A stretch of DNA of 63,917 nt, filler included, from Collodictyon triciliatum (Eukaryota), in assembly GCA_043381765.1 (NCBI GenBank). It is 8 parts of 8 records of this genome, joined end to end, with 100 filler letters (N's around TTAATTAATTAA, not from the genome) between each part and the next. Parts side by side here need not be neighbours in the genome. Positions count along the whole stretch, not along the records: positions 1 to 7,912 come from JBHJMP010003676.1; 7 more parts are not named here. One strand, given 5' to 3'. Under the pieces are notes generated by a model. The model did no database searches. It was given only the letters and a program-made list of their open reading frames with translations, and was not told the DNA's origin. Each line of letters opens with the position of its first letter. Position 1 is the first letter of the stretch. This document shows positions 1 through 41,859 of the stretch, in pieces. A program made the position numbers and the translations under genes.

Positions 1-2099
1 AAAATTTTTTTGTACGCTTAAAAAACAGTCGGAGTAGTTTCACAAGATACACCCGCAAGATTAAAAAAAAAAAAAAGACCAGATATGAGTATTGATATGA
101 TTACTTTTTATCTCAATGATTTTCGATTCTTTTAGTCCCGAGAAGAACGCTTTCCATTTGGTTGACTGTCTCATGTATTACCGTACTTGGCGAAGCAAAT
201 GTTAGCAGCTTATTATAATAACATTGGGGTGCATTTTGTAAAGAGGTTATTGCGCTTTATAAACCAAACAGTTCTTAAAGATGAGAATATGAAGAATGCT
301 ATTAAAAAGACAGAGTTACGAAAGTTAAAAAAAGAAACCATCTTCAAGACACTCGAAATATCGGAGCAATATAAAGAATGGGCTGCAACACATTTGCGCC
401 ATATCATTACCAACAATATTTTAAATGGTATCGAATATGACGTCAAAGTCAATCCAAATAATTACACGCCATACCTGATTTACATGAATCGCATTTTTGA
501 GGACATAGGAACCAAACTGTTTCAACCAATCTCTATAAGAACTACCAATATTTCATGTCATATTAGTCTAGATACTGCATGTTTGATGGGTCTATTAGTA
601 TTATCTGGAATGACATTATTGCTGAACAATATATAAGGATGCAAAGGGACACTATGGGATGAGTTCTTTGAAATGAAGAAGAGAGTCTTCCATCAAAGAG
701 ACCAGAATTTTAAATACATGATACAAACAGACGGCTTGGTGGTGTCATTATTGTTTGGAAACAAAGGTATTTCAAATTCAAAATTCAAAATTCAAAATTC
801 AAATATAATAAAAACCCCAAGAATATGTTTATATATATGAACTTCCCAAAGAGCGGTTATCTTTATTAGCCAAAAAAAAAAAAGCAGTTAGACTGGATGC
901 AGGCAAGTTTAATTTGGTTTACATGGTGGACGAGGCAGGTAAGAAATTACGTTACACGTCACACCAAAAATGACATGATAGCATATCTCTTAAAAACCAC
1001 AAAATACTCTTGCGCGAGAATGAAAAGTATAATGCTTCAGGGGGCATAAATGGAAACAGATTTACAAAGTGCTGTTTCTTTTAGTCCCATGACTGTTGAA
1101 GGGAATCAGCGGTTTGAGACATCAAGAGTATCTTAAATCGATTTAGAAACAGAACTGAGTAAACATAATCATGATGGTCGACTATGAAAATTTCGAAAAT
1201 ATGCATCTATGAAATCAAGATTCCAGATAGAATTATCCAGATTTTATTTTTTTTTTTCCTTTATTCGATTCAAAGTGTAGCGAGGTTATGCCATACAAAG
1301 GGGCGGGACGGGAGCGCATGGGAGAGAGCAAACGCGAGTAGGAGAAGACACTACCGTGGAGAGGGTAGCACTGGAAAGTAGTCAGTGATAGCGAGCTGGT
1401 CAGGTGGGCGACCCAACTGGTTGATTGATTGCGTGGGTAGCATGGGTTGGATATGTTGTGGGAGATATCTTACGACACATTCCCACATATCTCTTCGCTT
1501 GCGGTCAGAGTAGCGAAGAATGCGGCCGTGTTTCAGCAGGTTGTTCAGGAAGCTGTATTGCACGAGGCTCTCAAGCCTGGGTACATTGATTTCTCGTTCG
1601 GGTGAATCATTGGAGCGAGAGAATGCACGCACACTCCATAAGGACCACATCAATTATCCAGATTTTGTGAACAAGTAACTTTTCGAAAGATGATATGGAG
1701 ACAGTATGTTAATACAAAAAGAAGTGAAGAATTGTTTATGGAACGTATCGAAAAGACATTTGGCCAGGATGTTATACTAGCGTATGGAGACTGGAGCACA
1801 AAATGTCTGATGAACCATTTTATGCTAACAATCGGAAGAGGATTACGAAAAATACTATCCAAACGTTTTCAAACAGTGTAGATGAATTAAGAACCTCCAA
1901 TATGTGCTGCAACTGCGAAAAAGAAAAACTAAGATATATGTAACCGAAAGGAAATACATAATAGTTGTATAGATGTCTCATGTGTAAAGAAAGCAATCGC
2001 TCAGAAAGCAAACAAAGTGAATTCTTGACAAGAGACTTTAACAGCGCTAAAAGTATACTCAAGAAAGTTCTTTTAATCCTTCAAAATATGCCTACACCT

Positions 2100-2110
<11 letters not shown>
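1..2110 (+). pseudogene. Fanzor1/TnpB-like RuvC nuclease pseudogene (frameshifts, stops, LINE insertion)
   Basis: Fragments read: MIQTDGLVVSLLF; RuvC-I LDAGKFNLVYMVDEAGKKLRYT (D 896-898); IEKTFGQDVILAYGDWS...GRGLRKILSKRF; RuvC-II VDELRTSNMCCNC (E 1884-1886); zinc finger RCLMC; RuvC-III TRDFNSAKSIL (D 2034-2036). Confidence 0.85.
1246..1651 (-). mobile_element. 5'-truncated non-LTR retrotransposon (L1/Tx1-like LINE, family A) inserted in Fanzor copy 1
   Basis: Perfect 15-bp TSD AATTATCCAGATTTT (1231-1245 and 1652-1666). 3' end reads CTACACTTTGAATCGAATAAAGG plus poly(A). ORF 1351-1653 aligns with the C-terminus of the zf-RVT ORF at 22019-22819. Copy 2 has the empty site. Confidence 0.9.
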
Positions 2111-2156
<46 letters not shown>

Positions 2157-2280
2157 AGGCTGTTGGGTCTTTTCTGGCAGCCTTCACCACTACACGACCT
2201 TTGCGAAAAAAGTGGCGAGACCTTGGATACTGGCGCACTAGGTTTACGATTCGAAAGATTGGTATACCCCTTCTAGTATA
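2157..2280 (+). ncRNA. Candidate Fanzor omegaRNA scaffold, copy 1
   Basis: Non-coding block just 3' of the Fanzor ORF, conserved with 19361-19484(-). Stems AGGCTGTTGG/CTGGCAGCCT, GGTCT/AGACC and ATACTGG/CTAGTAT; GAAA loop. Confidence 0.65.
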
Positions 2281-2432
2281 CCCAAACTATTCTTCAAGCA
2301 CAGAGGGAAAAAAATTATTTTATCGGCACAGCCACAAGTATGGCGTGCATCACAGGGAACAGCGAAAGGTCGTTCGTCCAAGAAAGAACCCCAGCAAGCC
2401 GAGCACAGCGGAAAAGGGGCTTCTTTTTCTTT

Positions 2433-2468
<36 letters not shown>

Positions 2469-3290
2469 CGTCCAAAATGAAAAGAAACATGAGAAAAAAT
2501 GATTTTGAGAAAGAAACCATAATACCGTGCCCCGACCTGCGAGTCGGCCTCCAGTCATCACTGCGTGCCTGGCCATCTCGTGACTTGGGTGACTAGTCTT
2601 TGCGCAAGCCTCTCTTCCTGATTCGACAAGAATCGAGCATCCTATCACCAGAGGCCGCGGTCCTTTGCGCCCTGCACTTCCATCACAAACAAGTGCATGT
2701 GAAAAGGAAAAAGGGGTTTTTTTTCTTGTCGATTAATTATACAAATCTGGAGCGTTTTGGGCAGTCCAATAATCTGGATTCAAATCTGATGTTGAAATTC
2801 GGCCATGAAAAACAAACAGACGCAAACGTTGGTGCGGTCGGCCGCCCATCGTGGAGCCGCGCTGGGTTCTGCAGTGTCTGGGGGAGTTGTGGATCGGCGT
2901 CGGATTTCAGATCGGCATGATTCTCTTGTACTTTGGGCCTTCTGACTTGCAGAGAGCTCCTCTTTTTTTCTTCTTTTTTTTCTAAAAAAAAAAAACTGAA
3001 AAGAGTGAATGTTCTTTGATTTTCATCTTTGCTCTGAGATGTTTTTCGTGCGCTACGCTTTTGTATTTTATTTATGCTATTTTACTTCATGTCATGTGCA
3101 TTATGTGCTGAAATGTTGATCGAAAACTTGGGCAATATGTCCGTGTGTGGAGTGGTAGTTTAATGTAACCTGGCAGATTTGTCTTCTTTTTCGCCGGTTG
3201 GATTTCGCAGTATTCAAATTGAACTTCTAGATTCAATGCCATTGTTTGTATCCCCTCAAAGTTTAGAGAAAGAGGGACAGAAAGAACGGT

Positions 3291-6200
3291 ATGCACGGAA
3301 TCCGTTCCTTGGTCAGCAAAAAGAAGCGAAGATTCCAGGACTCTGGTTTCGACTTGGATCTCTCCTGTCTGATTTTGATCAATATTTTTCTCTTTTTCTT
3401 TTCTCTTTTTCTTTTCTCTTTTTCTTTTCTCTTTTTCTTTTCTCTTTTTCTTTTCTCTTTTTCTTTTCTCTTTTTCTTTTCTCTTTTTCTTTTCTCTTTT
3501 TCTCTTTTTCTCTTTTTCTCTTTTTCTCTTTTTCTCTTTTTCTCTTTTTCTCTTTTTTCTCCTTTTTCTCCTTTTTTTTCCTTTATTCGAATTCTCTTTT
3601 TTCTCCTTAATATTTATCTTTTGAAATTATTTTCTTAAAGGTGTACCCTTTTCCTAAATATCTGTTTAATACTATTCTCCACTCTTTCTTGGTCTAAATA
3701 TTTGCTCATGCATAGATGTTACTGAACGCATCATCGCCATGGGATTCCCAGCAGAAAAGTTAGAGGGTATGTACCGAAATCACCGAGACGAAGTCCTTAG
3801 GTACGCACTTATTTGCTCTACTTCAATGTTGTTTTTTGTCTTTTTAGAATCATGATATTTGCTTACTGTGGCAACATTCCACTAATCGCAGGTTCTTGGA
3901 GGAAAGGCACAAAGACCACTACAAGCTATATAATTTGTATGTATGATTATTTGAGAATGAGAAAGGAAAGCTTGGTAGAGTGAGAGACGGGTTGTTTGCT
4001 CTTGGTTTCATTCTACCCAATATTTGTTTCTGCCTCATCTAATTTCATCATGTACCTACTTATCTATATTGCTCTGCACTAGATGTTCAGAGAGGCATTA
4101 CGATACTTCAAAATTTCAAAATCGAGGTAAGTGGGTTATGTCATTATGTCGAGATGCTCTCATATATCCACATACATACATGTGTGTCACAAAATGAGGA
4201 CACTTTTGCTTAAAATGCATTCATTACAGTCGTTCGTTTCCCATTTGACGACCACAACGCCCCACCGTTTACACTAATATCTGAATTTTGTCAAGATATG
4301 GTAAATTTGACATCCCTACATAGTCATTGATAAAAGAAAAATACAAATTAATCCTGTATTTACTTGATTTTTTTAACTCATCCCATGTGTTAGTCCTTTC
4401 CTTTACTGTCAATTTTATATTAGTGCGATGGTTGGATTTACATAAGCTTACCTTGAGATATAAAAATTGATTGCCTGTTGTGTGGCATTTATATGTTCAA
4501 TGTAATCTGATCAGTAGGACTACTCAACTGCTCGATTGTATTTTTTGTAGGATACTTTCCTCACGGAGAGCTCAGAAAATGTTGCTGTTGTTCATTGCAA
4601 AGCTGGTAAAGGCCGTACGGGGGTGATGATCAGCTGCTATCTTCTATACTGTCAAATGTGGCCAACTGCTACCGAGGCTCTTAAGTTCTTCGCGGCCAGT
4701 CGTACAGAAGACCTCAAGGTAGCTTTTATCAAATAACCTCATGGCTTACTTAAATCCCTTGGAACAAAATGTCAATGAAACAAACTATTTCACATGATGG
4801 AATACAAATACTATACCATCAAATTACACTCTAATGCTGATATGTGTTGATTATTTACTATTTAATTCGACCATAATAACAGGGCGTGACGATACCAAGT
4901 CAGAATCGATACGTGCATTATTTTGACCAATATCTGAAAGAAGGGGATAAAAAGACTCCCATATTTGAGTTGAAGGCAATTCGGTTTCATACTATCCCAG
5001 ACTATGGCTCCAGTGGGGGTTGTGGTACGGTTGTATATTTCATAGTTTTTACACTGTTTTTATTGTTATGTGCGATTGGTGGTCAGAGTTGGCCAAAACA
5101 GTATATTGCTCTTCATAATTAAGCAATTCATGTCTCTCTTTTAGATCCAAGACTCCGGATCTTTGTTGGAAAACAACCCGTTTTTCATTCTAAAACTTAT
5201 GTAATTGCACTGCGTAACATAATTACCAATACTCATAACATTTGGTCGATGTATTATTTTTATTTTATTTTTATTTTATTTTTATTTTATTTATTTTTAT
5301 TTTATTTTTATTTTATTTTTATTTTATTTTTATTTTATTTTTATTTTATTTTTATTTTATTTTTATTCGTGCGTATGACCATCAATTTTGATTTGTTGTA
5401 AAAAAAAATACATTTTTAGAATATAAAAAATGAGGGCTACGATATCATGGAGTTTCCTATCGATGGGATAAATGTCAGCGGAGACGTGAAGATAGAATTC
5501 CACCACAAGGAGACCTTCTCTGCTGTAATTTTCAGACAAAAAAATTGAGAAAAAACGAAGTGAAGAAAAATAAGAGAATCTTGGATTTACACTCACTTTT
5601 TTTACTTGTACAGGTTGAGATGTTTCATTTTTGGTTTAATACCATGTTTGTTGACCCCGAAAATGCGTTCTTTACCAGAACTGAATTGGACAAAGCCCAT
5701 AAGGAAAAGAGAAAGAAGTATTTCGACGTATGTCTTTCCTCTTCATACAACTAATGACGTATATTCCGCTTTTAAGAGTGATTTGGAAATGAAACTAAGT
5801 ATCATTTGAATGCACAGCCTAACTTCAAGCTTGAGCTAGTACTCATCCCAAAAGGATTCGAGGATGAACAAAGTCGACCTCGCTTGTGCGTCAAATATCT
5901 ATCTAATTTTGATTTAATTAGTATGACCATATATTTATGTTGAACTTTTTCTTTTTCTTTTTCTTTTTCTTTTTCTTTTTCTTTTTCTTTTTCTTTTTCT
6001 TTTTCTTTTTATTAACGCCTATAATTACGGTCGATTTGCAATAATTAATAACAATCAGGGCCAACCCACGATTTTCTACACTGGAGCCTCGTCCCACGCA
6101 AAGATCAGGCACAGTAGAAGAACACCGCGTTGTGATGCCCATCGCCCATCTTGGTGAAGCCATGACAGAGCTCAAGTTGACAGAACCCTTGCCCATCGAA

Positions 6201-7912: not shown

Positions 7913-8012
7913 NNNNNNNNNNNNNNNNNNNNNNNNNNNNNNNNNNNNNNNNNNNNTTAATTAATTAANNNNNNNNNNNNNNNNNNNNNNNNNNNNNNNN
8001 NNNNNNNNNNNN
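7913..8012. other. Artificial contig linker N44-TTAATTAATTAA-N44 (also at 15921-16020, 23929-24028, 31936-32035, 39932-40031, 47928-48027, 55923-56022)
   Basis: Identical 100-bp spacer with stop codons in all six frames. Contig lengths never increase along the window. Confidence 0.97.
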
Positions 8013-8110
8013 TTTTTGGTTTTTGGTTTTTGGTTTTTGGTTTTTGGTTTTTGGTTTTTGGTTTTTGGTTTTTGGTTTTTGGTTTTTGGTTTTTGGTTTT
8101 TGGTTTTTGG
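8013..8110. repeat. (TTTTTGG)n heptamer array; reverse-complement array (AAAAACC)n at 48028-48130
   Basis: Visible directly in the sequence. Confidence 0.9.
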
Positions 8111-8515
8111 TAGAAAAAGGTTCTGTAGAAAATGATTAGTGAGCAGAATAAATGAGCAGAAAATATATTCGATGTACCAGAGAAGGTGAGAGTGATGAAT
8201 GATGCGATTGCTAATGCGTTATGGCGTTCATCATAATCCTATTGCTATATAAATTTATAGGAGAGCGAAAAGAGAATGGGAATCTTAAGGATGATAAGAT
8301 AAATAAATAAATAAAAATTATATCTCTGTGCGTTAAAAGGGAAAGAATGAAAGAAACCGTATAGATGGATAAGGTCATATACATTGTTTGTTTATTTGAT
8401 TGCTGATAGTGCATTCTGTTTGTTTGTTATTCAGGGTTTGAATAAGGAGCGAAGAGGTGGGGTAGAGAGGTGGGAAAAGAAGGAAAAAAGAAAGAAAGAA
8501 AAAAAGGATACTTCC

Positions 8516-10558
8516 TCAATCATCGCCAAACAAAGAAGTGCGAAGGACATTCTTTTTCCTGACGTTCACATTGCGTGCCGTACCGGCGACGGCGTCAGGC
8601 AAAGGCCCATCGTCATCATCGGCAAAAGGGTCGGAGGGTTTTGCTTGGGACAGAGGAGCAGCAGCAGGTTTTGGCTTCGGCATCGGGAGGAAGCCGTTGT
8701 CATCGTCGTCATCGTCGCCAAAGAGATTTGTCTTGCGGGGGACCTTTTCCGAAGACGGCTGGGGCAGAGACCCTGTTTGGGTATGCACGCGAGCCGCCGG
8801 CTTTGCCTCAAACAAATCGAGAGGAGTCGCCGCGGGGTCCTGCTTCTGGCTGGAGGACGAGAAGAGCGAGAGGCTGAATTTGGAAAATGAGGAGGAGGAA
8901 TTGCGGTTGCGGTTGGGGTTGTGGCTATCCTCAGGTGCGGCTGTGAGCGGTGATGGTGATGATGATGTCGACAACGGCTGCTGTTTTTGGACGTGTGGCT
9001 GTGCTTGTGGCTGTGGCTGTGCTTGTGGCTGCGGTGCGGCGGTGTGGCTGCGGCTTGTGGCGGGTCTGCTGGGGAAAAGCTCGACAATGGAGTCGGAGTG
9101 GCGCGGGGGCTGGAAGAGCGGGTCTGCGTAGAGGGGAGAGTCAGCGTGCGGGGCAGGGGGGAGGGCCGGGACGACCGGGGCGTCGCTGTGGGGAATAGTC
9201 TGCGGCGGGGCAGACTTTTCCGGGCACGGGGGCGCCGAGGCGGGCAGGATTCTGTCCCAGGGGATGGCGTACGGGTCGATGCTCTGGAGGGGCGCGATGT
9301 CTGCGGGGAGGTCGGGGAGGGGCTGGGCAAAGGCTGCGACGAGTTCGGAGCGCAGGGTGGAGAGGAGGGCGGGGTCTGCGGCGACGTGTGCGGCGTGGCG
9401 GCGGAGGGCGGCGGGGGCGTCGAGGGTGTGGTCGGTGTGGTCATTGTGGCCGGTGTGGCCGGTGTGGGGCAGGGTGAGGCGGGGGTCCGCGGCGGCGGGC
9501 AGGGCGGGCGGCAGGGGCGGGGCGCACAGGGCGGGCAGTGCGGCGCGCAGCAGCGGGGCGGCCACAAGCAGCGGCGTGTAGTTGCGGTGGGAGGCGGCGC
9601 GCACGAGCGGCGGCAGGGCGGCGAGGCTGCGGGCACGTGCGGCGAGGCGGGCGGTGTGGCGCGTGCGCACGTGCAGCAGGTGGGTGTGGCGGGCGTGTGC
9701 GGCGGCGTGCAGGGTCCTGGCGGCGGCACACAGGGTGCGGAGCGCGTGGGCGTACTGGGCGTGCAGCAGGTGCAGCGCGGCATCGAGGGCGGGCGGGGCG
9801 GCAGCGGGGCGGGGCAGGTGCTGGACCAGGTGCTGGGCCGCGTGGGCAAGGGGCGCCACCCGCCCGCCACAGGACCCCCCCGGGTGGCACAGCGGGGCGC
9901 ACGCCGGGCACAGCAGCGCGTCGCACTCCATGCACACGTGCGTCGGGGCGGCGGTGGCGGCGGGGCAGGCGCGGCGCTGGCAGGCGGGCGGCGGGGCGGG
10001 CGGCAGGTGCAGCAGCGCGGCGGGCGTGACGGGCACCACGGTGTGCCGCTGCGTGCGGCGGGCGCGCGTGTGCTGCGTCTGGCACTCGGCACACAGCAGC
10101 TCGCCGCAGTCCATGCACGCCCCGCTCGCCTCGCCGCCCCCCACGCACACCTCGCACCCCACGCGCTCGCCTCGCCCCACGCGCTCCACCTGCCGCAGCC
10201 GCCCCACCACCCCGTGTGGCCGCACGCGCAGCCGCTCGCCCCCCGCCTCCGCCTCCGGCACCCACCCGCCCCCTGTCCGCTCGCACAGCCCGCAGCCCCC
10301 GCCGCCTCCCTCCGCATCCGCGCACGCTCCGCACACAAGGTGCAGGCACCCCAGCAGCGCGCTGTCCTCCCCGCACTCCCCGCCGCACCCCGCACACTCC
10401 AGGCTCCACTCCGCCTCCGCCTCTGCCTCTGCCTCCAGTGTCCGCTCCCCTCTCGTCTCAGCTTCTCTGCTTTCCATCTCACGGGCGCTGCGGTCTCCCG
10501 TTTCCGTCTCTTCTCTCTTCTTTCTGTCTGTGCAAATGGGGTTTGGCGTTTGTGACAA
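8516..10558 (-). CDS. RING / B-box / B-box / coiled-coil (TRIM-like) protein, intronless, very GC-rich
   Basis: RING CAGC...CLHLVCGAC...CGLC; B-box CEVC...ACMDCGELLCAECQTQH...H; second B-box VCMECDALLCPAC...H; acidic C-terminal LFGDD motifs. Confidence 0.8.
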   Translation of the reverse strand: MSQTPNPICTDRKKREETETGDRSAREMESREAETRGERTLEAEAEAEAEWSLECAGCGGECGEDSALLGCLHLVCGACADAEGGGGGCGLCERTGGGWVPEAEAGGERLRVRPHGVVGRLRQVERVGRGERVGCEVCVGGGEASGACMDCGELLCAECQTQHTRARRTQRHTVVPVTPAALLHLPPAPPPACQRRACPAATAAPTHVCMECDALLCPACAPLCHPGGSCGGRVAPLAHAAQHLVQHLPRPAAAPPALDAALHLLHAQYAHALRTLCAAARTLHAAAHARHTHLLHVRTRHTARLAARARSLAALPPLVRAASHRNYTPLLVAAPLLRAALPALCAPPLPPALPAAADPRLTLPHTGHTGHNDHTDHTLDAPAALRRHAAHVAADPALLSTLRSELVAAFAQPLPDLPADIAPLQSIDPYAIPWDRILPASAPPCPEKSAPPQTIPHSDAPVVPALPPAPHADSPLYADPLFQPPRHSDSIVELFPSRPATSRSHTAAPQPQAQPQPQAQPHVQKQQPLSTSSSPSPLTAAPEDSHNPNRNRNSSSSFSKFSLSLFSSSSQKQDPAATPLDLFEAKPAARVHTQTGSLPQPSSEKVPRKTNLFGDDDDDDNGFLPMPKPKPAAAPLSQAKPSDPFADDDDGPLPDAVAGTARNVNVRKKNVLRTSLFGDD

Positions 10559-12324
10559 CAGAGAGAAGAAGCGTGAACAAGAAGGTTGTGTGCAAAGTTT
10601 TCTTTTTTTTTTCTTTTTTTCTTCGTTAGGAGGTGTGTATGGGACGTGGGGGTAGGCTTGGTTGTTAGGCTTTGCTTTGTGGATCGGAGGTTAGAAATAA
10701 TTTGAAGGAATTTGGATGTCTTTAGACTCTCCCCCTCTGGCATCGGCCGATCGCGCATACGCTCTCGACCTTCTTCGCTGGCGATTTATGACGGGGGTTG
10801 ATTGATCGAGAATACAAACGAAAAGGCTTTTAATCAAATGTGGAATCTATATATCAATACAATAAAACACACTTATTTACAATATCAAAATATTAAAATA
10901 ATCTTAATTGAGGATAAATTGATTTGAATCATATGTACACGTTATTAGCACAATAGGGATGCGTTTCTCCTTCTAGTTTACCGATGTATGAATTCTCTTC
11001 CACAAGTCCGTTGCGCGAACGAAAATCAAAATAGGATGTCCAAGAATAGATATTCGTTGAACGGATGTGGAGAGAAAACGGTGGAATTTTCATAGATTCT
11101 GTACATTTAAGGAAATTACATATTCAACCAGAATATCCTAAGTCTGGAATATAACATCTTAATATAGAATGTTGACATTAACGGAAAACTTGAAGACACC
11201 ATTTTTTTACGAAACCATCACTGGCTGCGAAATGAAAGAAAAGCAAGAAGGAAAGGCATCTCTCAATAAGGATACAAATGGATCATCCAAAACTGGATTT
11301 GTATCCAAACACACCAGAAAAGGCAAATCCGCTATTCAGAATCTTTCTGCACATTTTCCTTTTTTCTCCCACTTTCCTCGTATTAAATTTTAAAATTTTT
11401 TTTCTCTTCGTCATCCTATGACGCAAAATCAAATTAGAAAAACACAAAATTAATGTGTCTTTCGTCTGTCGTTGTTTTTCAGATGTCCAATGGCCTTCCT
11501 TTCTTTTTTTTGCACAAATAAAATACAATGAAACTCCCCCTCAATTTTTTTCCAATAATGACGAATAGTTGGTTTTTTTTCCCTTTCGTAAAAGCATTGC
11601 GAATAAAGCCAACATTCAAAAAATTCGGTACCAAAAAGCTCTTTTCGCAGACTTTCTGGTCTCTCCCACAAGCTCTTCAGCGACCTGTGTCTGTTTATTT
11701 CAATTGAAAATGAGCAAAGAGGCTGAGATTGCATTCTTTTTCTTGATTGTTTGAATTTCATCATTAACAGTTCACGACCTGTTTTTTTTTTTCATATTTT
11801 CATTTTTCATGATTTATTGAAAGGGAGATCTTGTTTAAAAAAAAACAAAAATCGAAGAGAAAAGAGCAGATCCATCTCAGCAACTATTTTTTTTTTCGTT
11901 CTCTCCTCGCCAAACCAGATCAAATGGCGTAGCGATCTAAGAAATGGCCTCAACCACCCTCAAACATTTCATCGTGCCTGCTTGAATCATCGGTAGTGAA
12001 GAGAACCGTCGCAATCAAAAAACAAATCAAACATATTAACAAATCGCTCACACCCGCAAGCTCACCTCTCCCTGCCCCTCCTCTTCATACCACGCCAATT
12101 ACAGAAGAAAAGCACAAAAAGAAAAAGAAGACGAAAAGGAGAGGCAAACATATTGCCACACCAATGACAAAAGCAAAAGCAAAAGCAAAAGCAAAAGATA
12201 AAGCAAAAGCAAAAGCTAAAGAAGTGAAAGAGAACACGCAGAGCTCACAACAGCACCCAAGAAAACACCCACACAGCGCATTCCGCAGCACGGGACTAAT
12301 CACAGGCGACAGCCACACACAGGA

Positions 12325-13638
12325 ATGCGCACGAAAGCCCAGCCACAACAGAGCCAGCGAAGAGAGCCCAACACCGCGCCGCCTGTGGTCTTTGCACTGC
12401 AGTTCCCCGCGTCCCGCCACAACTCTCCTGATGCTGTAGCCACAACCACAACCACAGCCACACATGCCCACCCGCTCCCCTGCGATCTCTCGTTTGTCTT
12501 CAAGCTCGCTTGCAGCCACACTCCGGCACCAAAGCGACTGCGCCCCCTGGCCGCACCATATACAGCCACAGCCACAGCCACAGCCACAGCCACAGCCACA
12601 ACCACAGGTGCGGGGTGCGGACTCGATCGCGTTGGGGCGGTGGGCCGAGGGCGAGGCCGGGGAAGAGGCCGGGGAAGAGGCAAAGGCCAGAGCAGCCGCA
12701 TTCGGCGCATGGATGTAGTTGTCGGGCAGCGCGATCGGGTGGGGGGCGGGCACAGGCAGCAGCGAGATAGCGACGACGAAGCAGAGATCGATGCGGCCGA
12801 GCGAAGCGAAGGGGAGAGCGAGGAGGATGTTGAAAAAGACGAAGTGGAGGACGAGGAAGACGAGGTAGAGGAGGAGGAAGAGGAGGAAGAAGAAGAGGAG
12901 GAGGAGGAAGAAGAAGAGGAAGAGGTGCTGCATGAGAGCCAGGTCTTCTTCGGATCCTTGATTTCGCCCAGCCTATCCCTCTCCCCGACAACCGCAATTG
13001 CAACCACAGCCACAGCCACAGCCACAGCCACAGCCACAGCCACAGCCACAGCACCTCAGCGGGCAAAGGGTCCGCCTGCGCCGTCGGGCCGGAGCAAAGA
13101 GCGCAGCGGGAAGGCGCACAAGCGGTGTCTGTACTGCAACGCAAACGAGACGGTGATGTGGCGACAAGGCCCCGAGGGCAAAGGTACCCTCTGCAATGCC
13201 TGCGGCGTCCGCTGGAAGCGCGGCTCCCTGCACCTGACACCCACGACAACGACGGCATCCATCAACACAGCCACAGCAGTCGCCACAGCCACAGCCACAG
13301 TGGCCGCCACAGGAAACGATGACGTCGTTGTCGCCACGCCCTCGTCGTCGCCACCGCTTCCTGTGGCAAAGGCCCACCACAAACGCGCATCGCCCTCGTC
13401 CCCGTTCTCCGCCCTGTGGCAGACGTCCTCGTATTCATCCCACGCCTCCTCGTCTGCGTCCCCGTCGCCCTCCTCCTCGTCATCCTCGTCTTCAGTCTCA
13501 GCAGCAGCATCGCAGGCGTCCTCAACACCGCCCAAAGCAGCAGCGGCATCGACATCGACATCGACATCGACATCGACATCAGTAACTGTGGTTTCCGCTT
13601 CTGCCACACCCGTTCTTGTGCCTCGTCCTCGTCGATGA
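12325..13638 (+). CDS. GATA-type zinc-finger transcription factor with low-complexity tracts
   Basis: CLYCNANETVMWRQGPEGKGTLCNACGVRW is a C-x2-C-x18-C-x2-C GATA finger. Poly-E and (TA)n tracts. Confidence 0.88.
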   Translation: MRTKAQPQQSQRREPNTAPPVVFALQFPASRHNSPDAVATTTTTATHAHPLPCDLSFVFKLACSHTPAPKRLRPLAAPYTATATATATATATTTGAGCGLDRVGAVGRGRGRGRGRGRGKGQSSRIRRMDVVVGQRDRVGGGHRQQRDSDDEAEIDAAERSEGESEEDVEKDEVEDEEDEVEEEEEEEEEEEEEEEEEEEVLHESQVFFGSLISPSLSLSPTTAIATTATATATATATATATAPQRAKGPPAPSGRSKERSGKAHKRCLYCNANETVMWRQGPEGKGTLCNACGVRWKRGSLHLTPTTTTASINTATAVATATATVAATGNDDVVVATPSSSPPLPVAKAHHKRASPSSPFSALWQTSSYSSHASSSASPSPSSSSSSSSVSAAASQASSTPPKAAAASTSTSTSTSTSVTVVSASATPVLVPRPRR

Positions 13639-14598
13639 GACACTTGCACTATCCATCAACTTATCTTTTGATTTCTCGTTATCATTTATTTTATTTTTCC
13701 CTTGTTTTTTTTCCCTTCCTTATATGCGCCTGAGATTAAGTTATCTGAAACAGCAAATGATGGAGAGATGGTTCTGTCAGGCAGTTTTTTCCCCCATTCG
13801 ATTTCTATTTGCTCCGCCAAGATATCATTTTTAACTTTAATTCTAATATCCGCAGGATATTGTTCCCTTTTTTTTCTTCTTTTTTTTGCTGTTTAATTTT
13901 ATTGTTTTGAAAGGAGATTTTTTTCTCTTCTTTTTTTTTTTCTTTTCTCTTCCCCTTTTCTTTTTTCTTCCTCTTTCTCTTCGGACTATCTCCCTCTCAA
14001 TTTTTAAAAAGACACCTTTTCAGGGTTTGACAAAAGTACCGAAGGTAAATGATTGGGTGAACCATTTCTAGGAACACGTTCAAAACCACTATTTTTTCGT
14101 TTGTTTTTTCCATTCATTCGCATCATAAAGAGAAGTATGACCGCCGCAATATCTCATATTCTGACCATTACCTGGAGAGGCTTTTAGCAAACCAAAATCA
14201 CTTCTTTTTTTCCCTTTCGGGGTTTAGATTGCTGCGTACCCACCCTTGAGTAAACAAGGGAATCGAAAATAAAGCATTCATTTCTTCTCGCATAACAAAT
14301 CCTATTTGCCCCCAGCAGAATTGCTGGGATGATATTTTATTTACATATTACCGATTTACAGCCATATTTCTCTACACCTGAACCCCCTGGTGAACCAGCC
14401 AATATTATTGCACAATTATTGACTCATATGTTGCTAGAAAAAGATAAAATAAGACCCCTAGAAGACTTATATTCCACACATTTTTTTCATTCAATATGAC
14501 TTAGTATATACTACTTTGGTTTATATTTATGTATTTTTGGTAGGTCATGTAATATAACGACAAGACAAGGAGGTAGAAAGAGGTAACAGGTAGGGTAA

Positions 14599-15920: not shown

Positions 15921-16154
15921 NNNNNNNNNNNNNNNNNNNNNNNNNNNNNNNNNNNNNNNNNNNNTTAATTAATTAANNNNNNNNNNNNNNNNNNNNNNNN
16001 NNNNNNNNNNNNNNNNNNNNATAATAATACTGATAATAATACTGATAATAATACTGATAATAATACTGATAATAATACTGATAATAATACTGATAATAAT
16101 ACTGATAATAATACTGATAATATTGATTATAATAAATAAGTAATTAATATATAC

Positions 16155-18819
16155 CTGAGAGTGAGGGCTGTTACGAAATGATTATGTGCTTCGGGTACAA
16201 CCGCAACACATGTAGCGGTGGTCAAATCCCAAACTCTGATACTTTTATCGTCTGATGAACTGTGAATACAAAAGGAATGGCAATTGAAGAATAAGCTTTC
16301 AGAGAAAATCAAAAAATTGCTAAAAAAAAAAAAAAAAAGGTCTACATTTCATAGCGATTGCCTTCGTATCAGTCACCACATAGCAGAGTAATTATCAATT
16401 ATGATGAAAACCTTATTAAATGCCTTCCATTTGGGTGAAAGAGAACAGCACGAACCCAATTATCATGCCCGACCTGAGGAAAAGAGAAAGAAAGAAAAAT
16501 TATACGAGTGAAGCTTTAGATGACTTTGCGTAGTTGAATTGCTATCGCGTAATAATGTCTTATAGAGATGAGAAAATTGTTGGGTAAAAGAAACATTAAT
16601 GAAGGGGGAGTACGTATTATATGGTTACTTGGCAATGTTGGTAATAAAATAACAATACGAACCAAAGAGAACAGACATCTGCCGGTATGTACATCCCATA
16701 TTTTGATCGACTTGTCGCGAGAACCTGAAGCCAAGTATCCTTCTGGAGCGAGGTTTGAGGTGCTCGTACCTCTCTTTGGAGGTATTGATAATCATCATCA
16801 CCATCACCACCACCATCGTAATCATAATCATAATCATAATAATACTAATAATATATGAATTATGAATAGGGATTAAAATAAAAATGCTTATTCGGGAATA
16901 TTGTTTTGTAACTAAAAGATACCTTCGCTGCTATGAGGATTTTGTTAATAGTTTCAGTGGCACTTTGATTTCCAAAAGCGATGCATTCTACAACGTGCTC
17001 ATGCTCGGATAGTGTGCTAAGGTGTAGTAAGTTGTGGTATGATTGAACGTATTTCGTAATTTGTGATTCAAAAGTACATAAAAAGAATCATATGAAAAAT
17101 ACTATATCGTGTCATTTTCAAACAATTATAAATAAATAAAAATATTTCGTGTAACTAGCAATATTAACCTTGTACATGAACCCGTGGAAACGTTCCAAAT
17201 TTTGACCGTCTATGCCGTATTTTAGTTGATGAGGGAATCATAATTTAAAAAGATGCCATTCGGAGTAGGTATATCATTTTCGTATTTCATTGTAATAAAT
17301 ACATGGTCAGAAGAACAGCTTGCGATCAATTTTCCTTCTGGGTGGTAAATAACCTTTCGAACCCATTCTGAGTGGCCGCTTAGCGTTTTTATGCAATACC
17401 TAATCACATTTAGTGAAATTGAAAAATTGTGACCTATAAAACGAAAATAAGGTATACACTTAAAAATAGAAGAAAATAAAAGAAGGTAACCCAGTAGATA
17501 TCTCCCATATTTTGATAGTTTTATCTCTGGATGCTGACGCAAGATACTCGCCTGACGGCGAGAAAGTAACGGACGAAACATTGTGTTCGTGACCAAACAT
17601 TGTTTTTATACAATTGTAATTCCCGGTTTCCCACAATTTTATAGTCAGATCTGCGGATGAAGATGCTGTGTGTAATAATAGGTTACGGTGGGATGGTGAC
17701 TAATTTTGAACTATCTCAATGTGATCGACTTTTGAGATGTTTATTTTAGGATGAGAGACAGATTAAATTTATTTTTTTTTATTAAAAAAATTATCCAACT
17801 ACAGTACCTAATAATTTCCCAGAGGGATCGAAGGCTACTTCTTGAACTGCATTCGTATGTCCTTTCATAGTTCTTTGAATCTCACCAAATTCTGCATCCC
17901 ATATCTTACGATGGAAAAATGGAGGTCGATGTCAAATAATGATACATGAATATGAATAAAATGATAATACCGCAGAACATAAGCACGGAAACATCAACCT
18001 TGATTGTCGCATCTTCAGAACAGGAAGCAAGAAGACTGTATTGTGGATGGAAAGCGATGTTTGTGATTGTGGTTTTGTGCTCAGACAGGGTGTGAACGGG
18101 ACTTGGCCGTGGAATTCCGTCGCCTCGGCCGGCCGCTTTCCCCCTGCCAGACTTTCCATTGCCAAAGTCCTCTTGTAATTGGGAAATTTGTGCCTCCAGA
18201 TTATTTATCTACAAGCAATTTAATTTCATGCTGTTAATAGAAAGTAGAAAAACATTTTACATACATGTAAAAAAAGAAAAAAGTAACAAGGATGGATACT
18301 AAACTATTCTATAAAAGTTTTTTTTCGAATAGTAATGAAGCAAATAATAATAAGGCGAAAATTTAATCATCTTGAGATATGAATGCCAAAGGGTTATAAA
18401 ATAAAGTAATCTTCTTATGTATACACGGCGTTGCAGGGTGATAATTGAGGTCCATTTCCTTTCAAGAAGATTGTCCTTAGAGGCTTCGTGAACTGAGGCT
18501 TCAGACTCGAATTGACTCGCTGTCGACGAGTAACCATTTGCCCTCAAATAACCAAGAATGGACTTATTCCTGCTCGTATATTTTTTGGAAATAGAAAGAA
18601 GAAGGAGGAGAAAGCATAATGTTGTATTACTCGTAGGCCTCTGTATTTAAAGGCTGGATCATTTCAGCCTCGCATTTTATGGTGAAATACTTTGACAATC
18701 GAGATAATATATATATATATATATATTGAAAAAAATAAGGAGAAAGGCCTGCAGTTGCAAAAGGTTGGAGAAAAAGGAGACACTCACAGCTCCTCTTTCT
18801 GGCTTGTTGTCAAAACCAT
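16155..18819 (-). CDS. LIS1: LIS1/NudF dynein regulator (LisH + WD40), last exon lost at contig edge
   Basis: [104 protein letters not shown]. Confidence 0.93.
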
Positions 18820-19360
18820 TGAAGATCTAAAAGCCGTTTCCTCTGGAGATCTAGAGGAGATTCGTCAAAGTTTCTTCTGTTAAAAACACGCGCTTGGATT
18901 CGTTTCGTACGTTCTGGTATTTCTAATTCGTGCTTTGTTTCTGTAGACGTTCTGACAGGAGACTAAAGGTAAGAGTTTTCCCTCTCTACAACTCGAGCAG
19001 CTTTTTGTGCTGGGAAGCGTTATTTTCATTCTAGCTATTTATTTATTCCTCTCCTTGTTTCTTTTTTACTTATTTTTCTTTCTCTTTTCTCCGTATTTGC
19101 TGTGTGATCTGCTTGGGTGATTTGTGGGTCTTATGAAAGTGGTTTTGAATACCACATATGGGACGGAGATGGAGCAAAGACGAAGCAACCATTAAGAACA
19201 CTATTCTGGAATATATACTTCAACATTTTTTCATCTAATTTAAGCGACAGAACCCTCAAAATAACGCATAAATATGTGCAAATGTATAATTTTTTCAAAA
19301 TTAATTTTTAACTGATTGATTGAAGTTATAAAATATATGATTTGCTAATTTTTTAAAACT

Positions 19361-19484
19361 TATACTAGAAGGGGTATACAATCTTTCGATTGGTAAACTT
19401 CGTCCGCTAGTATCCAAGGTCTCAACACTTTTTTTCACAAAGGTTGCGTAGCGGTGAAGGGTGCCAGGAAAGACCCAACAGCCT
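19361..19484 (-). ncRNA. Candidate Fanzor omegaRNA scaffold, copy 2
   Basis: About 14 substitutions and 2 indels versus 2157-2280 by manual alignment. Stems CCGCTA/TAGCGG, CAAC/GTTG, CAATC-GAAA-GATTG and ATACTAG/CTAGTAT. Confidence 0.65.
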
Positions 19485-19489
19485 ATTTT

Positions 19490-21416
19490 TTTTAAAAAGG
19501 AAGGTGAGTGCATATTTTAAAGGGTTAAAAGAACTTTCTTGAGTGTATTATGGGCGCTGTTTAAGTCCTTTGTCAAGAATACACTTTGTTTGCTTTCTTA
19601 GCGATTGCATTATTTACATATGATACATCTGCGAAACTTTTTTGAATTTCCTTTCGGTGTCATATATTCCAGTTCTTTTTCGCGGTTACAACACATATTG
19701 GAGGTTATAAATTCATCTACACTGATTGTTTCAAAACGTTTGGATAGTATTTTTCGTAATCCTCTTCCGATTATTGACGTAAGATGTTTCATCGGGCATT
19801 TTCTGCTCCAGTCTCCATACGCCAGTACAACATCCTTGCCAAATGTCTTTTCGATTCGGTCCATAAACAATTGTCCACTTCTTTTTGTATTATCATATTG
19901 TCTCCATCTCATCTTTCGAAAAGTTACTTGTTTTAAAATCTAGAAAATTCTATTTGGTTTCTTAATTTCATAGATACATATTTTCGAAATATTTATCATA
20001 ATCGACCATGCATGAATTATGTTTACTCAGTTCTGTCTCTAAATCGACTAAAGATAGTCTTGATGTCTCAAACCGCTGATTCTCTTCAAAAGTCAGGGGG
20101 CCAAAAGGAACAGCATTTTGTAAACCTTTTGTCATGCATATCCCTGAAGCATTGTACTTTTTTTCTCGCACAAGAGTATTTTATGATTTTTAAGAGATTT
20201 GCTATCAAGTCTTCTTTTGTGCGCCGTGTAACGTAATTTCTTACCTGTCTCATCCACTATGTAAACCAAATTAAACTTGCCTGCGTCCACTCCATCTTTT
20301 TTTTTTCGCTAATAAAGATAACTGCTCTTCAGAAAGTTCATCTATATAAACATTTTCTTGGTTTTTTTTTGATTATATTTGAATTTTGGATTTTTTTCCT
20401 TTATTCGATTCAAAGTGTAGCGAATTTGGATTTTGTATTTGAAAAACCTTTCTTTTGAAAGAATAATGACACTGCCAATCCGTGTGTTTGTATCATGTAT
20501 TTAAAATGGTAGTCTTTTTGACGAAAGACCCTCTTGTTCATTTCAAAGAAATCATCACATTAAGTCTCTTTGCATCTTGATTTATTCTTCATTAATGATG
20601 TTTTTTTTTCCAGAAAATACTTATCTATCAAACATGCAGTATCTAGAGTAATATGACATGGTATATTGTTAGGTCTTATAGAGATTGGTTGAAATAGTTT
20701 GGCTCCAATGTCCTCAAAAATGCGATTCATGCAAATCAGATATGGAATGTTCTTATTTGGATTTACTTTGACGTCAAATTCGATACCTTTTACAATATCG
20801 TTGGGAATGATATGATTCAAATGCGTTTTAATCCATTCTTTGTCTTGTTCTGGTATGTCGAGATTCTTGGAGATGGCTTTTTTTTTTAACTTTCGTAACT
20901 CTGCCTTTTTAATAGCTCCCGTAACATTCTAATATTTAGGAACTGTTTGATTTATAAAGCGCAGTAATCTCTTTACAAAATGCTCCTTAATGTTATTATG
21001 ATAAGCTGTTGGCATTTGCTTCGCAAAGTACGGTAATACATGAGACCGTCCAACCAACGGAAAGCGTTCTTCTCGGGTCAAAAAACTCGAAAATCATTGA
21101 GATAAAAAGTCATCAGTCTTTATTCATTTCTGGTTTTTAATATTGTGGGTCTATCTTGTGAAACTATTCCGATTGTCTTTAAAGCGTACGAAAAAAACAT
21201 TTCATCGATTGTGGGGAATTGTTGTGATTTCAATATGTAACATCTTGCAGAGGGATAAGTTTCGGAAACCAAGTTATGACACATTAAAACCGTATCGTTG
21301 ATTTTGTCATAGTCATCCGGATTCTTTACAGTCGACTTTAGATATGTTTTTACATTTCGATAGCCTGGTTTTCCAGACTTAAGATTCCTAGACTCAAGAC
21401 GTTTCCTTCTCTTCAT
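19490..21416 (-). pseudogene. Fanzor1/TnpB-like nuclease pseudogene, full length but frameshifted
   Basis: N-terminus YRNVKTYLKSTVK...INDTVLMCHNLVSETY; KLFQPISIRPNNIPCHITLDT; RuvC-I VDAGKFNLVY (D 20285-20287); LAYGDWSRKCPMKH; VDEFITSNMCC; RCIICK; KDLNSA (D 19565-19567). Confidence 0.88.
20395..20421 (-). mobile_element. Ultra-short LINE-A 3'-tail insertion inside Fanzor copy 2
   Basis: TTTCCTTTATTCGATTCAAAGTGTAGC is identical to the tail at 1254-1281. Flanked by GAATTTTGGATTTT and GAATTTGGATTTT. Confidence 0.8.
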
Positions 21417-21626
21417 CTGGAAGTCTTTGTTTTACTTTTTCGTTTAGAAAACTACCAGGTTTTTAGTTTTAATAAATCTTTAGTCAATAAGTCAATTTAA
21501 TACAAACCAAAAATCAACTGCATAATAAATTCAGGTAAAATTAAGCATTTACCGAGACTCTCAAAATATACGCATTGTGGCAAAGAAACACACAAAGTTT
21601 TTTTTGTTAGTGATTTGAGACAAAAC

Positions 21627-23430
21627 TATGAGAGCCGATTCTGTGAGTTCGAAAGGACGGCCATATAGCCATTGCGGCTGAAAGTCATCATATCGGCCCC
21701 AAACAACATGATTACCGCCACAAGTATGGATATAATGCTTTTTTGAAATGCATGTTTGGTGGCAGGTTTATAGACTGGGTTCTGTCTGGGCCAAGGCGAG
21801 GGCTTATTTGTCATTTTTGAATTTTTGAGAATTAATATTACACAAACAGAATAGCTCATACATCACAACGCCAGGCTCCACCGCATTCCACACGCAAGAT
21901 GCACAGCCAACCACAGCCGTCCTGAATAACAAAGGAAAATGGCGTTCACGCAGACCAATCTCATACGACATCCCGTCGCCATTCTTTTTCCGCCTCAAGA
22001 ACGAACGCTCGTCGAACGGTGTGCAGTCTATGCAGTTCTCGATGGCTATGGCCTACTCCAAATTCTTTCGAGACAAAATATCCGCCGCCGATACCTTACA
22101 AAAAGTCAAAACATCAACGATGGGGAGAAACACTAGGCATCACCCACACCCCGCTCACCGCGAGCTGGAGACAAACACGAACCCCGCAAGTCCTTCCAAA
22201 TCACCGCTCTCTAATGCTTAATATCACCAATAGGGTGCTATGGATAAGCACACGCGCGGCAAAAGCTGGCAAAGTCTCCCAACAATGCACACTTTGCAGT
22301 AACGGTGATGAATCCATTGGGCACACATTTGTGCAATGTCCCTTCGCTCAAAACCTGCGCGAAATAGCCGGTGGGTTGCTTCGACTGACACTCAAGACGG
22401 CTGCGGCTGTTGGCCCAATCCAGGCGATATTTGGGCCTCTGCAACAGCTGCGTCCAGATGCGAAAACATTCTGGGCAGTGACGCGAGGCCATTTGCTATG
22501 GACTATGTTGATAGCGCGCTTATACTCACGCAAAGCAAGACTCAACAACCAGCCACCCATTCCTGATAACAGGCTGGATGACATCATACAAATCCCCTTC
22601 CTCAATAGCTTTCTTCGCCACCTGCACGTTCTCTACTACTCAAACCCTGTGAGAAGAGACATGCGGAAAGAGGCTGAGAAAAATATTAAACCTCGCCTTG
22701 TATCTCTCATGCAAGCACAAGACCCAGGCTACAGGCCAAACCGCAGGATGCAATTCCTGATTACGGACTACTTCTCCGCCACCCGGCCATCAAGTAGCGT
22801 CCATGCAAAAAATGGCTAGCGAACCAAAGCCAGAACCTCCACCATTCTGCACAAAATTGAAAGGAGTAATAACAATAATTATTTTTCATGAAATAAGTAT
22901 CTGAGACCAGGAAGCGGAATCTTGCGCCAAATACACAAAATAAATTAAAAAAAAACACGTTCCACAAAAGCGCGAGACTTTTCCACTTAAAGAAACAACG
23001 GACAAACACTCAACATCCTCATAAACTAACTCGATCATTAGAGGTAAAGCGAACAAAAAAATAAATAAACTGAAAATAAAGCAATAAAGCAATAAAGCAA
23101 TAAAGCAATAAAGCAATAAAGCAATAAAGCAATAAAGCAATAAAACAATAAAACAATAAAACAATAAAACAATAAAACAATAAAACAATAAAACAATAAA
23201 ACAATAAAACAATAAAACAATAAAACAATAAAACAATAAAACAATAAAACAATAAAACAATAAAACAATAAAACAATAAAACAATAAAACAATAAACAAT
23301 AAAACAATAAAACAATAAACAATAAAACAATAAAACAATAAAACAATAAAACAATAAAACAATAAAACAATAAAACAATAAAACAATAAAACAATAAAAC
23401 AATAAAACAATAAAACAATAAAACAATAAA
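21627..23430 (+). mobile_element. 5'-truncated, degraded L1/Tx1-like LINE (family B): ORF2 C-terminus, 3' UTR, octamer-repeat tail; 5' boundary approximate
   Basis: zf-RVT knuckle CTLCSNGDESIGHTFVQCPFA followed by LLWTMLIAR. Frameshift near 22070. Followed by (GCAATAAA)n(CAATAAAA)n. Confidence 0.8.
23076..23430. repeat. (GCAATAAA)n/(CAATAAAA)n octamer array
   Basis: Visible directly. The same unit occurs at 63821-63917. Confidence 0.92.
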
Positions 23431-29338: not shown

Positions 29339-31800
<2,462 letters not shown>

Positions 31801-35445: not shown

Positions 35446-35487
35446 CACTTTGAATCGAATAAAGGAAAAAGAAAAAAGAAAAAAAAA
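35446..35487 (+). mobile_element. LINE-A 3'-tail remnant running into a scaffold gap (N 35488-36070)
   Basis: CACTTTGAATCGAATAAAGG plus A-rich tail. The right-hand TSD is hidden by the gap. Confidence 0.7.
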
Positions 35488-41786: not shown

Positions 41787-41803
41787 CGCTCCCAGGTGGG
41801 CTC

Positions 41804-41840
<37 letters not shown>

Positions 41841-41859
41841 CCGGTTGCGCCATGGAAGC
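41787..41859 (-). tRNA. trnN: tRNA-Asn(GTT)
   Basis: GCTTCCATGGCGCAACCGGTAGCGCGTTCGGCT-GTT-AACCGAAAGGTTGGTGGTTCGAGCCCACCTGGGAGCG folds as a complete cloverleaf with TTCGA T-loop. Confidence 0.96.

What the first reader, a model, noticed from the sequence alone, without database searches (positions are those of the whole stretch)
1..2280. Multi-copy Fanzor1 (eukaryotic RNA-guided nuclease) element family
Seen: two collinear, independently degraded copies (1-2280 + and 19361-~21500 -) on two of eight unrelated contigs. Both keep the RuvC D-E-D residues (DAGK, VDE, R/KDxNSA) and a Cys zinc finger, and no transposase is present. Known: DxGK...YGDWS...DE..TS.C...RD.N.A is the Fanzor/TnpB layout, and the QTDG and DAGKFNLVY..D..G..LRYT motifs resemble Fanzor1 proteins of giant viruses and protists. 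Inference: this is a high-copy non-autonomous family in this genome. Intact copies may exist elsewhere, and a consensus would give a new programmable nuclease plus its RNA.
Basis: partly seen in the sequence, partly recalled or inferred. Interest (0 to 1): 0.85.

Follow-up and report, generated by a model that had tools for sequence, protein, structure and literature searches.

The report
Two decayed Fanzor1 nuclease gene copies
The window holds two long-dead copies of a mobile element that once encoded a Fanzor1 RNA-guided DNA-cutting enzyme, a well-known kind of element whose closest relatives here sit in giant-virus genomes.

Summary
Window 5-2280 (+) and 21196-19361 (-) align at 80-81% identity. 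Copy B continues to a start codon at 21416. Both copies are collinear with an intact 648-aa public homologue, P0002.

A profile of 30 relatives matches the solved Fanzor1 structures over its full length: SpuFz1 1e-97, PpFz1 1e-96, GtFz1 7e-69. The window's own ORF fragments hit that profile at up to 1.6e-39. The conserved D/E/D aligns with the metal-binding D383/E541/D606 of SpuFz1.

Both copies are pseudogenes. Copy A has 10 stops and 3 frameshifts; copy B has 4 stops and about 11 frameshifts. Thirteen of the 14 stops are private to one copy. Differences between the copies are spread evenly over codon positions. Each copy also carries its own insertion from one retroposon family.

The copies share an exact 19-nt 3' end. 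No inverted terminal repeats, target duplication or transposase were found, and no guide RNA could be shown.

Contigs from an RNA-containing run suggest many further, diverged, transcribed copies. The nearest relatives lie on giant-virus contigs.

Verdict: an ordinary, decayed new member of a known family.

The parts
1..2280 (+). Copy A of the Fanzor1 element. It is cut at its 5' side by the window start. The pseudogene covers homologue residues 77-481 (7-1247) and 476-630 (1651-2114), followed by the 3' tail.
   Evidence: It has 10 in-frame stops and 3 frameshifts.
1246..1650 (-). Retroposon insertion inside copy A. A T-run lies at its left side, which is a poly(A) tail on the minus strand. 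It is flanked by the 15-bp target duplication AATTATCCAGATTTT (1231-1245 and 1651-1665). Copy B lacks it.
2106..2155 (+). Run of 50 A inside the shared sequence. Copy B has 8 A at the same place, so this is an expanded homopolymer and not a retrocopy tail.
2156..2280 (+). 3' tail of copy A up to the shared right end GTATACCCCTTCTAGTATA (2262-2280). It is a candidate guide-RNA (omega RNA) scaffold by analogy only.
   Evidence: The fold z-score is -1.15, which is not significant.
19361..21416 (-). Copy B: a full-length pseudogene from ATG 21416 through homologue residue 642 (19447), plus the 3' tail to the right end at 19361.
   Evidence: 370 of 634 aligned residues are identical to P0002. It has 4 stops and about 11 frameshifts.
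20391..20423 (-). 33-bp fragment identical to the 3' tail of the retroposon that sits in copy A (1251-1283). It is a short, 5'-truncated insertion in copy B.
   Evidence: Loose contig ends at 20389/20391 and 20423.
21417..21797 (-). 5' leader of copy B. Diverged contigs from other copies align up to about 21797, so the left end lies at or beyond that point. The exact terminus is not defined.
   Evidence: records 5 and 6. Giant-virus relatives share up to about 390-450 nt upstream of their ATG.
21854..22872 (+). 3' fragment of a LINE-like retrotransposon next to copy B. It is not part of the Fanzor element. It holds a zf-RVT domain ORF at 21926-22819, and other copies carry an A-rich tail.
   Evidence: PF13966, 1.5e-7. 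(loose ends at 21854 and 22872; very high summed depth).

Best explanation
These are two old, independently decayed insertions of one roughly 2.4-kb mobile element family. Its single gene encoded a Fanzor1 protein, the eukaryotic and giant-virus relative of bacterial TnpB.

In an intact element the protein is about 650 aa. It has an N-terminal basic, NLS-like stretch, REC/WED parts, a RuvC nuclease with the rearranged D...E...D site, and a C4 zinc ribbon. By analogy with studied Fanzors it would bind a guide RNA transcribed from the 3' end of the element. That RNA would read into the flank, and the complex would cut matching DNA next to a short motif, which is thought to help the element persist.

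Neither copy in the window can make the protein. At most they could still give RNA.

Shown here: homology, the aligned catalytic residues, decay, neutral divergence, the shared 3' end, and the giant-virus kinship.

Inferred: the guide RNA, the mode of mobility, non-autonomy, and the copy number in the genome.
For: **Repeat.** The two copies are 80-81% identical over about 1.9 kb. They share an identical 19-nt end, with only 2 matches in the window against 0.02 expected. The flanks differ immediately after it.

**Family.**
- P0002 hits the solved Fanzor1 structures at 2e-28 to 4e-23.
- The profile of 30 relatives hits SpuFz1 at 1e-97 over positions 3-606 of 616.
- 12 of 1467 window ORF fragments hit that profile, from 1.6e-39 to 0.1, and all 12 lie in the two copies.
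- The invariant D364, E555 and D604 align with chain positions 777, 935 and 1000 of the 8gkh fusion. Subtracting the 394-residue offset of the fusion partner gives SpuFz1 D383, E541 and D606. These are the metal ligands named in PMC10432273 (passage read).
- Both copies keep these residues.

**Decay.**
- Copy A has 10 stops and 3 frameshifts; copy B has 4 stops and about 11 frameshifts.
- All three stop codons occur, opposite L, G, E, R, K and S. 13 of 14 are private to one copy.
- Mismatches by codon position are 77, 71 and 81 (chi-square p = 0.73). 154 codons change the amino acid and 41 are synonymous.
- Each copy has its own retroposon insertion.

**More copies.** In run X1 the summed depth is 78-460 over 19325-21684, against 0.16-6.8 in the left flank. 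Between 3 and 20 contigs cover single sites, and at many sites every contig differs from copy B. X1 also holds a spliced contig of the neighbouring gene with 0-1 differences.

**Kin.**
- 309 viral loci encode relatives.
- The nearest representative, P0005, is 88% identical to giant-virus locus L002.
- P0002 groups with L002, L004 and L006 at SH-aLRT 96.
- Atlas look-alike clusters are 92-100% Nucleocytoviricota.
Against: - No terminal inverted repeat or target duplication was found for the element. The left end is not defined. Mobility is therefore inferred from copy multiplicity and from knowledge of the family.
- No support for a structured 3' RNA. Fold z-scores are +0.36, -1.15 and -0.97, and only 1 of 46 predicted pairs is compensatory.
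- The 3' tail is no better conserved than the coding part: 88.5% against 83-90%.
- A sequence model of the giant-virus 3' tails does not match the window tails.
- Summed contig depth is not a copy number, and the run type of X1 is only a guess by the tool.
- The Fanzor1 label rests on a profile of relatives, not on a whole protein from the window.
- The tree is a quick search without an outgroup and contains long branches.
Confidence: 0.9

Rival explanations
1. The copies are fragments of integrated giant-virus DNA, not copies of a cellular mobile element.
For: The nearest relatives are on giant-virus contigs.
Against: Only the roughly 2.4-kb unit is shared. Homology between the copies stops at the 19-nt end. 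A spliced LisH/WD40 host gene starts about 0.7 kb from copy B. The neighbours are retroposons and host exons, and no viral genes were seen.
Confidence: 0.04
2. The copies are processed retrocopies of a host Fanzor-derived gene, because copy A has a long A-run after the reading frame.
For: There is a run of 50 A at 2106-2155.
Against: The A-run is internal. Copy B has 8 A at the same place, and homology continues for 125 nt to a shared end. Other copies also share about 380 nt upstream of the ATG.
Confidence: 0.03
3. The genes are still functional, and the apparent breaks are introns or a variant genetic code.
For: Some Fanzor genes carry introns (PMC10530073, passages read).
Against: Both copies are collinear with the intact protein, with no intervening segments other than the retroposon. 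TAA, TAG and TGA all occur, opposite six different residues. Frameshifts of 1-2 nt are present. Divergence is neutral by codon position.
Confidence: 0.01
4. The dead copies still serve as guide-RNA donors for intact family members, like the ORF-less 'ghost' loci of Spizellomyces. This reading does not exclude the main one.
For: Ghost loci supply working guide RNAs in S. punctatus (PMC10432273, passages read). The last 19 nt of both tails are identical. Family transcripts appear in run X1.
Against: At the listed sites in the tail (19401, 19425) most or all X1 contigs differ from copy B. The tail is not more conserved than the coding part. No structural signal was found.
Confidence: 0.1

Closest known systems
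SpuFz1 and the SPu-1 elements of Spizellomyces punctatus (Fanzor1; PDB 8gkh)
   Same: It is a single-gene element of about 2.1-2.4 kb that encodes a protein of about 630-650 aa. The family profile aligns with SpuFz1 over its full length (1e-97). The D/E/D metal ligands coincide. The family is multi-copy, with both full and partial copies (PMC3627910 and PMC10432273, passages read).
   Different: SPu-1 has 30-33-bp inverted repeats and TA duplications. None were found here. SpuFz1 copies are about 82% identical and many are intact. Both window copies are dead.
GtFz1 of Guillardia theta (Fanzor1; PDB 9cer)
   Same: It is the best single-sequence PDB hit of P0002 (2e-28). Its loci also lack inverted repeats and an associated transposase (PMC10432273, passage read).
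   Different: The similarity is distant. The family profile scores it lower than SpuFz1 and PpFz1 (7e-69).
Fanzor1-type 'transposase' genes of giant viruses (Nucleocytoviricota MAGs; Pfam DUF8286 plus the Cas12f1-like TNB domain)
   Same: These are the closest relatives found. They reach 44-47% identity over residues 1-648 and are sister in the tree. The layout is the same: up to about 390-450 nt of shared leader, the ORF, and about 50-120 nt of tail.
   Different: The viral copies are intact. 63 of 71 carry a conserved terminal motif ...TTTTAAAT(N)GGTGTAA. The window tails do not match this motif.
Bacterial and archaeal TnpB, and Fanzor2
   Same: They share the RuvC plus zinc-ribbon core and the logic of an RNA-guided nuclease.
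   Different: Only the TNB domain gives weak hits. LaTranC and a 'Transposase' chain score 5e-3 to 0.08. Pfam PF07282 stays below its cutoff in P0002. No chain named Fanzor2 is among the PDB hits.

Membership tests
Fanzor1 | Full-length sequence homology to experimentally characterised Fanzor1 proteins | tested here: met
   The profile of 30 relatives hits SpuFz1 at 1e-97 (positions 3-606 of 616), PpFz1 at 1e-96 and GtFz1 at 7e-69. Window fragments hit the same profile at 1.6e-39 to 5e-6.
Fanzor1 | RuvC triad with the relocated RuvC-II glutamate (D...E...D) | tested here: met
   D364, E555 and D604 are invariant in 30 of 30 sequences. They align with SpuFz1 D383, E541 and D606 (PMC10432273). 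The glutamate lies in the DE..TS motif, 34 residues after the YGDWS site. This fits the rearranged site described in PMC10530073. Both copies keep the three residues.
Fanzor1 | The Bao and Jurka motif D-X(125,275)-[TS]-[TS]-X-X-[C4 zinc finger]-X(5,50)-RD | tested here: met
   P0002 has D364, then T558-S559-K-L-C562..C565..C587..C590, then R603-D604. Copy A keeps all of it. Copy B has lost one Cys (CCNR) and reads KD instead of RD.
Fanzor1 | Placement in the Fanzor1 clade rather than with Fanzor2 or TnpB | tested here: inconclusive
   The PDB ranking favours Fanzor1 by more than 60 orders of magnitude. The tree held only family members, with no Fanzor2 or TnpB outgroup.
Fanzor1 | A guide (omega) RNA encoded at the 3' end of the element | tested here: inconclusive
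   A shared 125-nt tail exists, but there is no fold signal (z = +0.36, -1.15, -0.97). Only 1 pair is compensatory. The tail does not match the viral tail model. Small-RNA data are needed.
Fanzor1 | An intact, expressible nuclease gene | tested here: not met
   Copy A has 10 stops and 3 frameshifts. Copy B has 4 stops and about 11 frameshifts. These are relics of members, not working members.
TIR DNA transposon carrying Fanzor1 (Mariner, hAT, Sola, MuDR and similar) | Terminal inverted repeats, target site duplication, and a transposase in cis or in trans | tested here: inconclusive
   No reverse-complement match of the right end was found within 3 mismatches. No long inverted pair links the two ends. 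The left end is undefined. No transposase domain was found in the 20 ORFs scanned.
Fanzor2 / IS607-type | Closer similarity to TnpB and Fanzor2 than to Fanzor1 | tested here: not met
   Only 8 PDB hits have E of 1 or less. Three are Fanzor1 and none is named Fanzor2. The TnpB-like chains match the TNB domain only, at 5e-3 to 0.08.

The most novel reading that the evidence does not exclude
The two relics belong to a still-transcribed cellular branch of a giant-virus Fanzor1 clade. This would mark gene flow between giant viruses and this freshwater eukaryote. The branch has its own right end, and hence its own guide-RNA scaffold, unlike the conserved terminal motif of the viral elements. Naturally intact members elsewhere in the genome would then be a distinct Fanzor1 nuclease and guide-RNA pair.
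Probability: 0.3. Interest if true: 0.5.

Novelty: new member of a known kind. Interest (0 to 1): 0.3.

Why it matters
Fanzors are the eukaryotic RNA-guided nucleases and are candidate compact genome editors. These two copies are dead and add only a data point. They show an old burst of a Fanzor1-only element in a freshwater eukaryote, with about 14% neutral divergence between the copies. They also link a cellular Fanzor1 family to a large giant-virus clade. Value for tool-making would come only from intact family members, which were not seen here.

Tried and rejected
- **Single window fragments against Pfam:** 0 of 8 gave a relevant hit.
- **JGI metagenome scan:** it gave only one distant locus, L001, at 21% identity. 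That locus was not used further.
- **RNA evidence:** no RNA holder was listed for the stretch.
- **Raw-read run X10:** only 29 reads were laid, so it gave no usable depth.
- **blastn of the 3' tails against 80 loci:** only chance-level matches.
- **Giant-virus 3' tails:** RNAalifold found no consensus pairs on my alignments. The resulting sequence-only model gave 93 AT-rich hits in the window with E of 0.016 or higher, and none on the Fanzor tails.
- **Host identification through the ESM Atlas:** the 883-aa Sel1-repeat ORF gave only bacterial repeat clusters, which is uninformative.
- **Second protein search with the 156-aa copy A fragment:** it found only 3 short relatives at 40-76% identity and no self-hit, so there is no copy count from that source.
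- **Not attempted:** a consensus or repaired protein, because two copies cannot resolve one, and a structure prediction, which the sequence hits to solved structures made unnecessary.
- **Not available:** supplementary files of the Fanzor papers were closed. Their locus tables might already list this organism.

Full report
**What is there**

The window is eight pieces of about 7.9 kb joined by N runs. Positions 5-1246 and 1652-2280 on the plus strand align with 21196-19934 and 19949-19361 on the minus strand. Identity is 81.0% and 79.7%.

Copy A is cut by the window start. Copy B continues upstream to an ATG at 21416 that opens with MKRRKR.

Both copies end in the same 19 nt, GTATACCCCTTCTAGTATA. 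This sequence occurs only twice in the window, against 0.02 matches expected by chance. Right after it the two flanks differ. A profile search of 1467 ORF fragments from the whole window found no third copy.

**What it is**

Single fragments gave no Pfam hit. A database search with the 109-aa fragment of copy B found an intact 648-aa protein, P0002. It is 64% identical to the fragment over 98% of that query. Both copies are collinear with it from end to end.

P0002 matches the solved Fanzor1 structures of Guillardia theta, Parasitella parasitica and Spizellomyces punctatus at 2e-28 to 4e-23.

P0002 has 3147 cluster representatives with E of 1e-3 or less among 1.84 billion, so the family is large. 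A profile of 30 of these representatives matches three structures:
- SpuFz1 at 1e-97, over profile positions 3-606 of 616
- PpFz1 at 1e-96
- GtFz1 at 7e-69

TnpB-like chains reach only 5e-3 to 0.08, and only on the zinc-ribbon part. No chain named Fanzor2 appears. The window's own fragments hit this profile at 1.6e-39 to 5e-6.

The invariant D364, E555 and D604 of the family align with D383, E541 and D606 of SpuFz1. Those three residues hold the two magnesium ions in the structure (PMC10432273, passages read). The glutamate sits in the DE..TS motif downstream of YGDWS. This is the relocated RuvC-II glutamate described for Fanzors (PMC10530073, passages read).

Both copies keep D, E and D. Copy A keeps all four zinc-finger cysteines and copy B keeps three.

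**State of the copies**

A frameshift-aware alignment to P0002 gave these counts:

| Copy | In-frame stops | Frameshifts | Homologue residues covered |
|---|---|---|---|
| A | 10 | 3 | 77-630 |
| B | 4 | about 11 | 1-642 (370 of 634 identical) |

All three stop codons occur, opposite L, G, E, R, K and S. At 13 of 14 stops the other copy has a sense codon one change away. This rules out a variant genetic code and shows independent decay.

Mismatches between the copies fall evenly on codon positions: 77, 71 and 81 (p = 0.73). Amino-acid changes outnumber silent ones, 154 to 41. The roughly 14% divergence therefore accumulated without selection.

Copy A carries a 405-bp retroposon at 1246-1650. 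It has a poly(A) tail on the minus strand and a 15-bp target duplication. Copy B carries a 33-bp remnant of the same retroposon's tail at 20391-20423.

The 50-A run at 2106-2155 is an expanded homopolymer inside the shared sequence. It is not a retrocopy tail.

**Element anatomy**

The right end is defined. The left end is not, because copy A is cut. Diverged contigs in a public run align upstream of the ATG of copy B as far as about 21797.

Giant-virus relatives show the same layout. They share up to about 390-450 nt before the ATG and about 50-120 nt after the stop codon.

No terminal inverted repeat, target duplication or transposase was found. This is also reported for GtFz1 loci (PMC10432273, passage read).

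The neighbours are ordinary eukaryotic features:
- a spliced LisH/WD40 gene 0.7 kb from copy B
- a PTEN-C2 exon
- a LINE-like fragment at 21854-22872

**Guide RNA**

By analogy the 125-nt tail should hold the 3' part of the guide-RNA scaffold. I could not show this:
- The folds are not better than shuffled sequence (z = +0.36, -1.15 and -0.97).
- Only one pair is compensatory.
- The tail is no better conserved than the coding part.
- A model of the viral tails does not match it.

**Other copies and expression**

No genome is held for this window. Contigs of four public runs were laid on 16021-23100 at 80% likeness or more.

Run X1 holds a spliced contig of the neighbouring gene with 0-1 differences and three GT..AG introns removed. 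It is therefore RNA-derived and comes from the same or a very close organism.

In X1 the Fanzor region has a summed depth of 78-460, against 0.16-6.8 in the left flank. Between 3 and 20 contigs cover single sites. At many sites every contig differs from copy B.

This points to many diverged copies, some of them transcribed. Copy B itself is not seen at those sites. Summed depth is not a copy number.

**Relatives**

An IMG/VR scan found 309 loci that encode relatives, many on giant-virus MAGs. The best reach 44-47% identity over the full length. Further results point the same way:
- The nearest 50%-identity representative, P0005, is 88% identical to giant-virus locus L002.
- In a quick tree, P0002 groups with the viral L002, L004 and L006 at SH-aLRT 96. 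This tree has no outgroup and some long branches.
- Atlas look-alike clusters are 92-100% Nucleocytoviricota.

**Verdict**

The kind is well known:
- Bao and Jurka described Fanzor1-only multi-copy families in 2013 (PMC3627910, passages read).
- Later surveys list 3655 Fanzors, with up to 122 copies per genome (PMC10530073, passages read).

These two copies are relics. The interest is modest. It rests on the giant-virus kinship and on the hint of transcribed members elsewhere in the genome.

Noticed in passing
window 1246-1650; also 20391-20423, 30604-30630, 32751-32777, 34819-34845, 35446-35482: An abundant retroposon family shares a conserved 3' end (...GCTACACTTTGAATCGAATAAAGGAAAAAAA). One 405-bp copy with a 15-bp target duplication sits in Fanzor copy A. 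Short tail fragments occur in at least four of the eight pieces.
   Followed up: partly
window 21854-22872 (+): A LINE-like 3' fragment with a zf-RVT domain ORF (21926-22819). In run X1 its summed contig depth reaches 428-4928, far above the Fanzor family.
   Followed up: partly
window 17225-18697 (-): A host gene with LisH_PAC1 and WD40 domains, which looks LIS1-like. Three introns (17666-17807, 17905-17998, 18209-18424) are confirmed by a spliced 865-nt contig in run X1.
   Followed up: partly
L002-L080 (IMG/VR loci), 33-120 nt after each Fanzor stop codon: 63 of the 71 giant-virus loci with room after the stop codon end their shared 3' tail in a conserved motif, about (hairpin)-TTTTAAAT-N6-GGTGTAA. 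By eye, the hairpin arms differ between lineages while pairing is kept (GGGA/TCCC, GCCG/CGGC, ATGAT/ATCAT). This looks like the guide-RNA end of this viral Fanzor1 clade. RNAalifold on my alignments found no consensus pairs, so it is untested.
   Followed up: partly
window 8000-14000: GC-rich islands (55-60% GC) lie in an otherwise 33-38% GC window. They hold long ORFs, one with a GATA zinc finger (12220-13638, 3.6e-11) and one with weak B-box hits.
   Followed up: no
window 5434-5751 (+); 41787-41859 (-); 48189-49106 (+): A PTEN C2-domain exon, one tRNA gene (Rfam, 67 bits) and a leucine-rich-repeat ORF. These are ordinary host features.
   Followed up: no
window 23138-23296: A highly repetitive stretch. 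Its short words recur more than 12 times, and it made read laying refuse the full piece.
   Followed up: no
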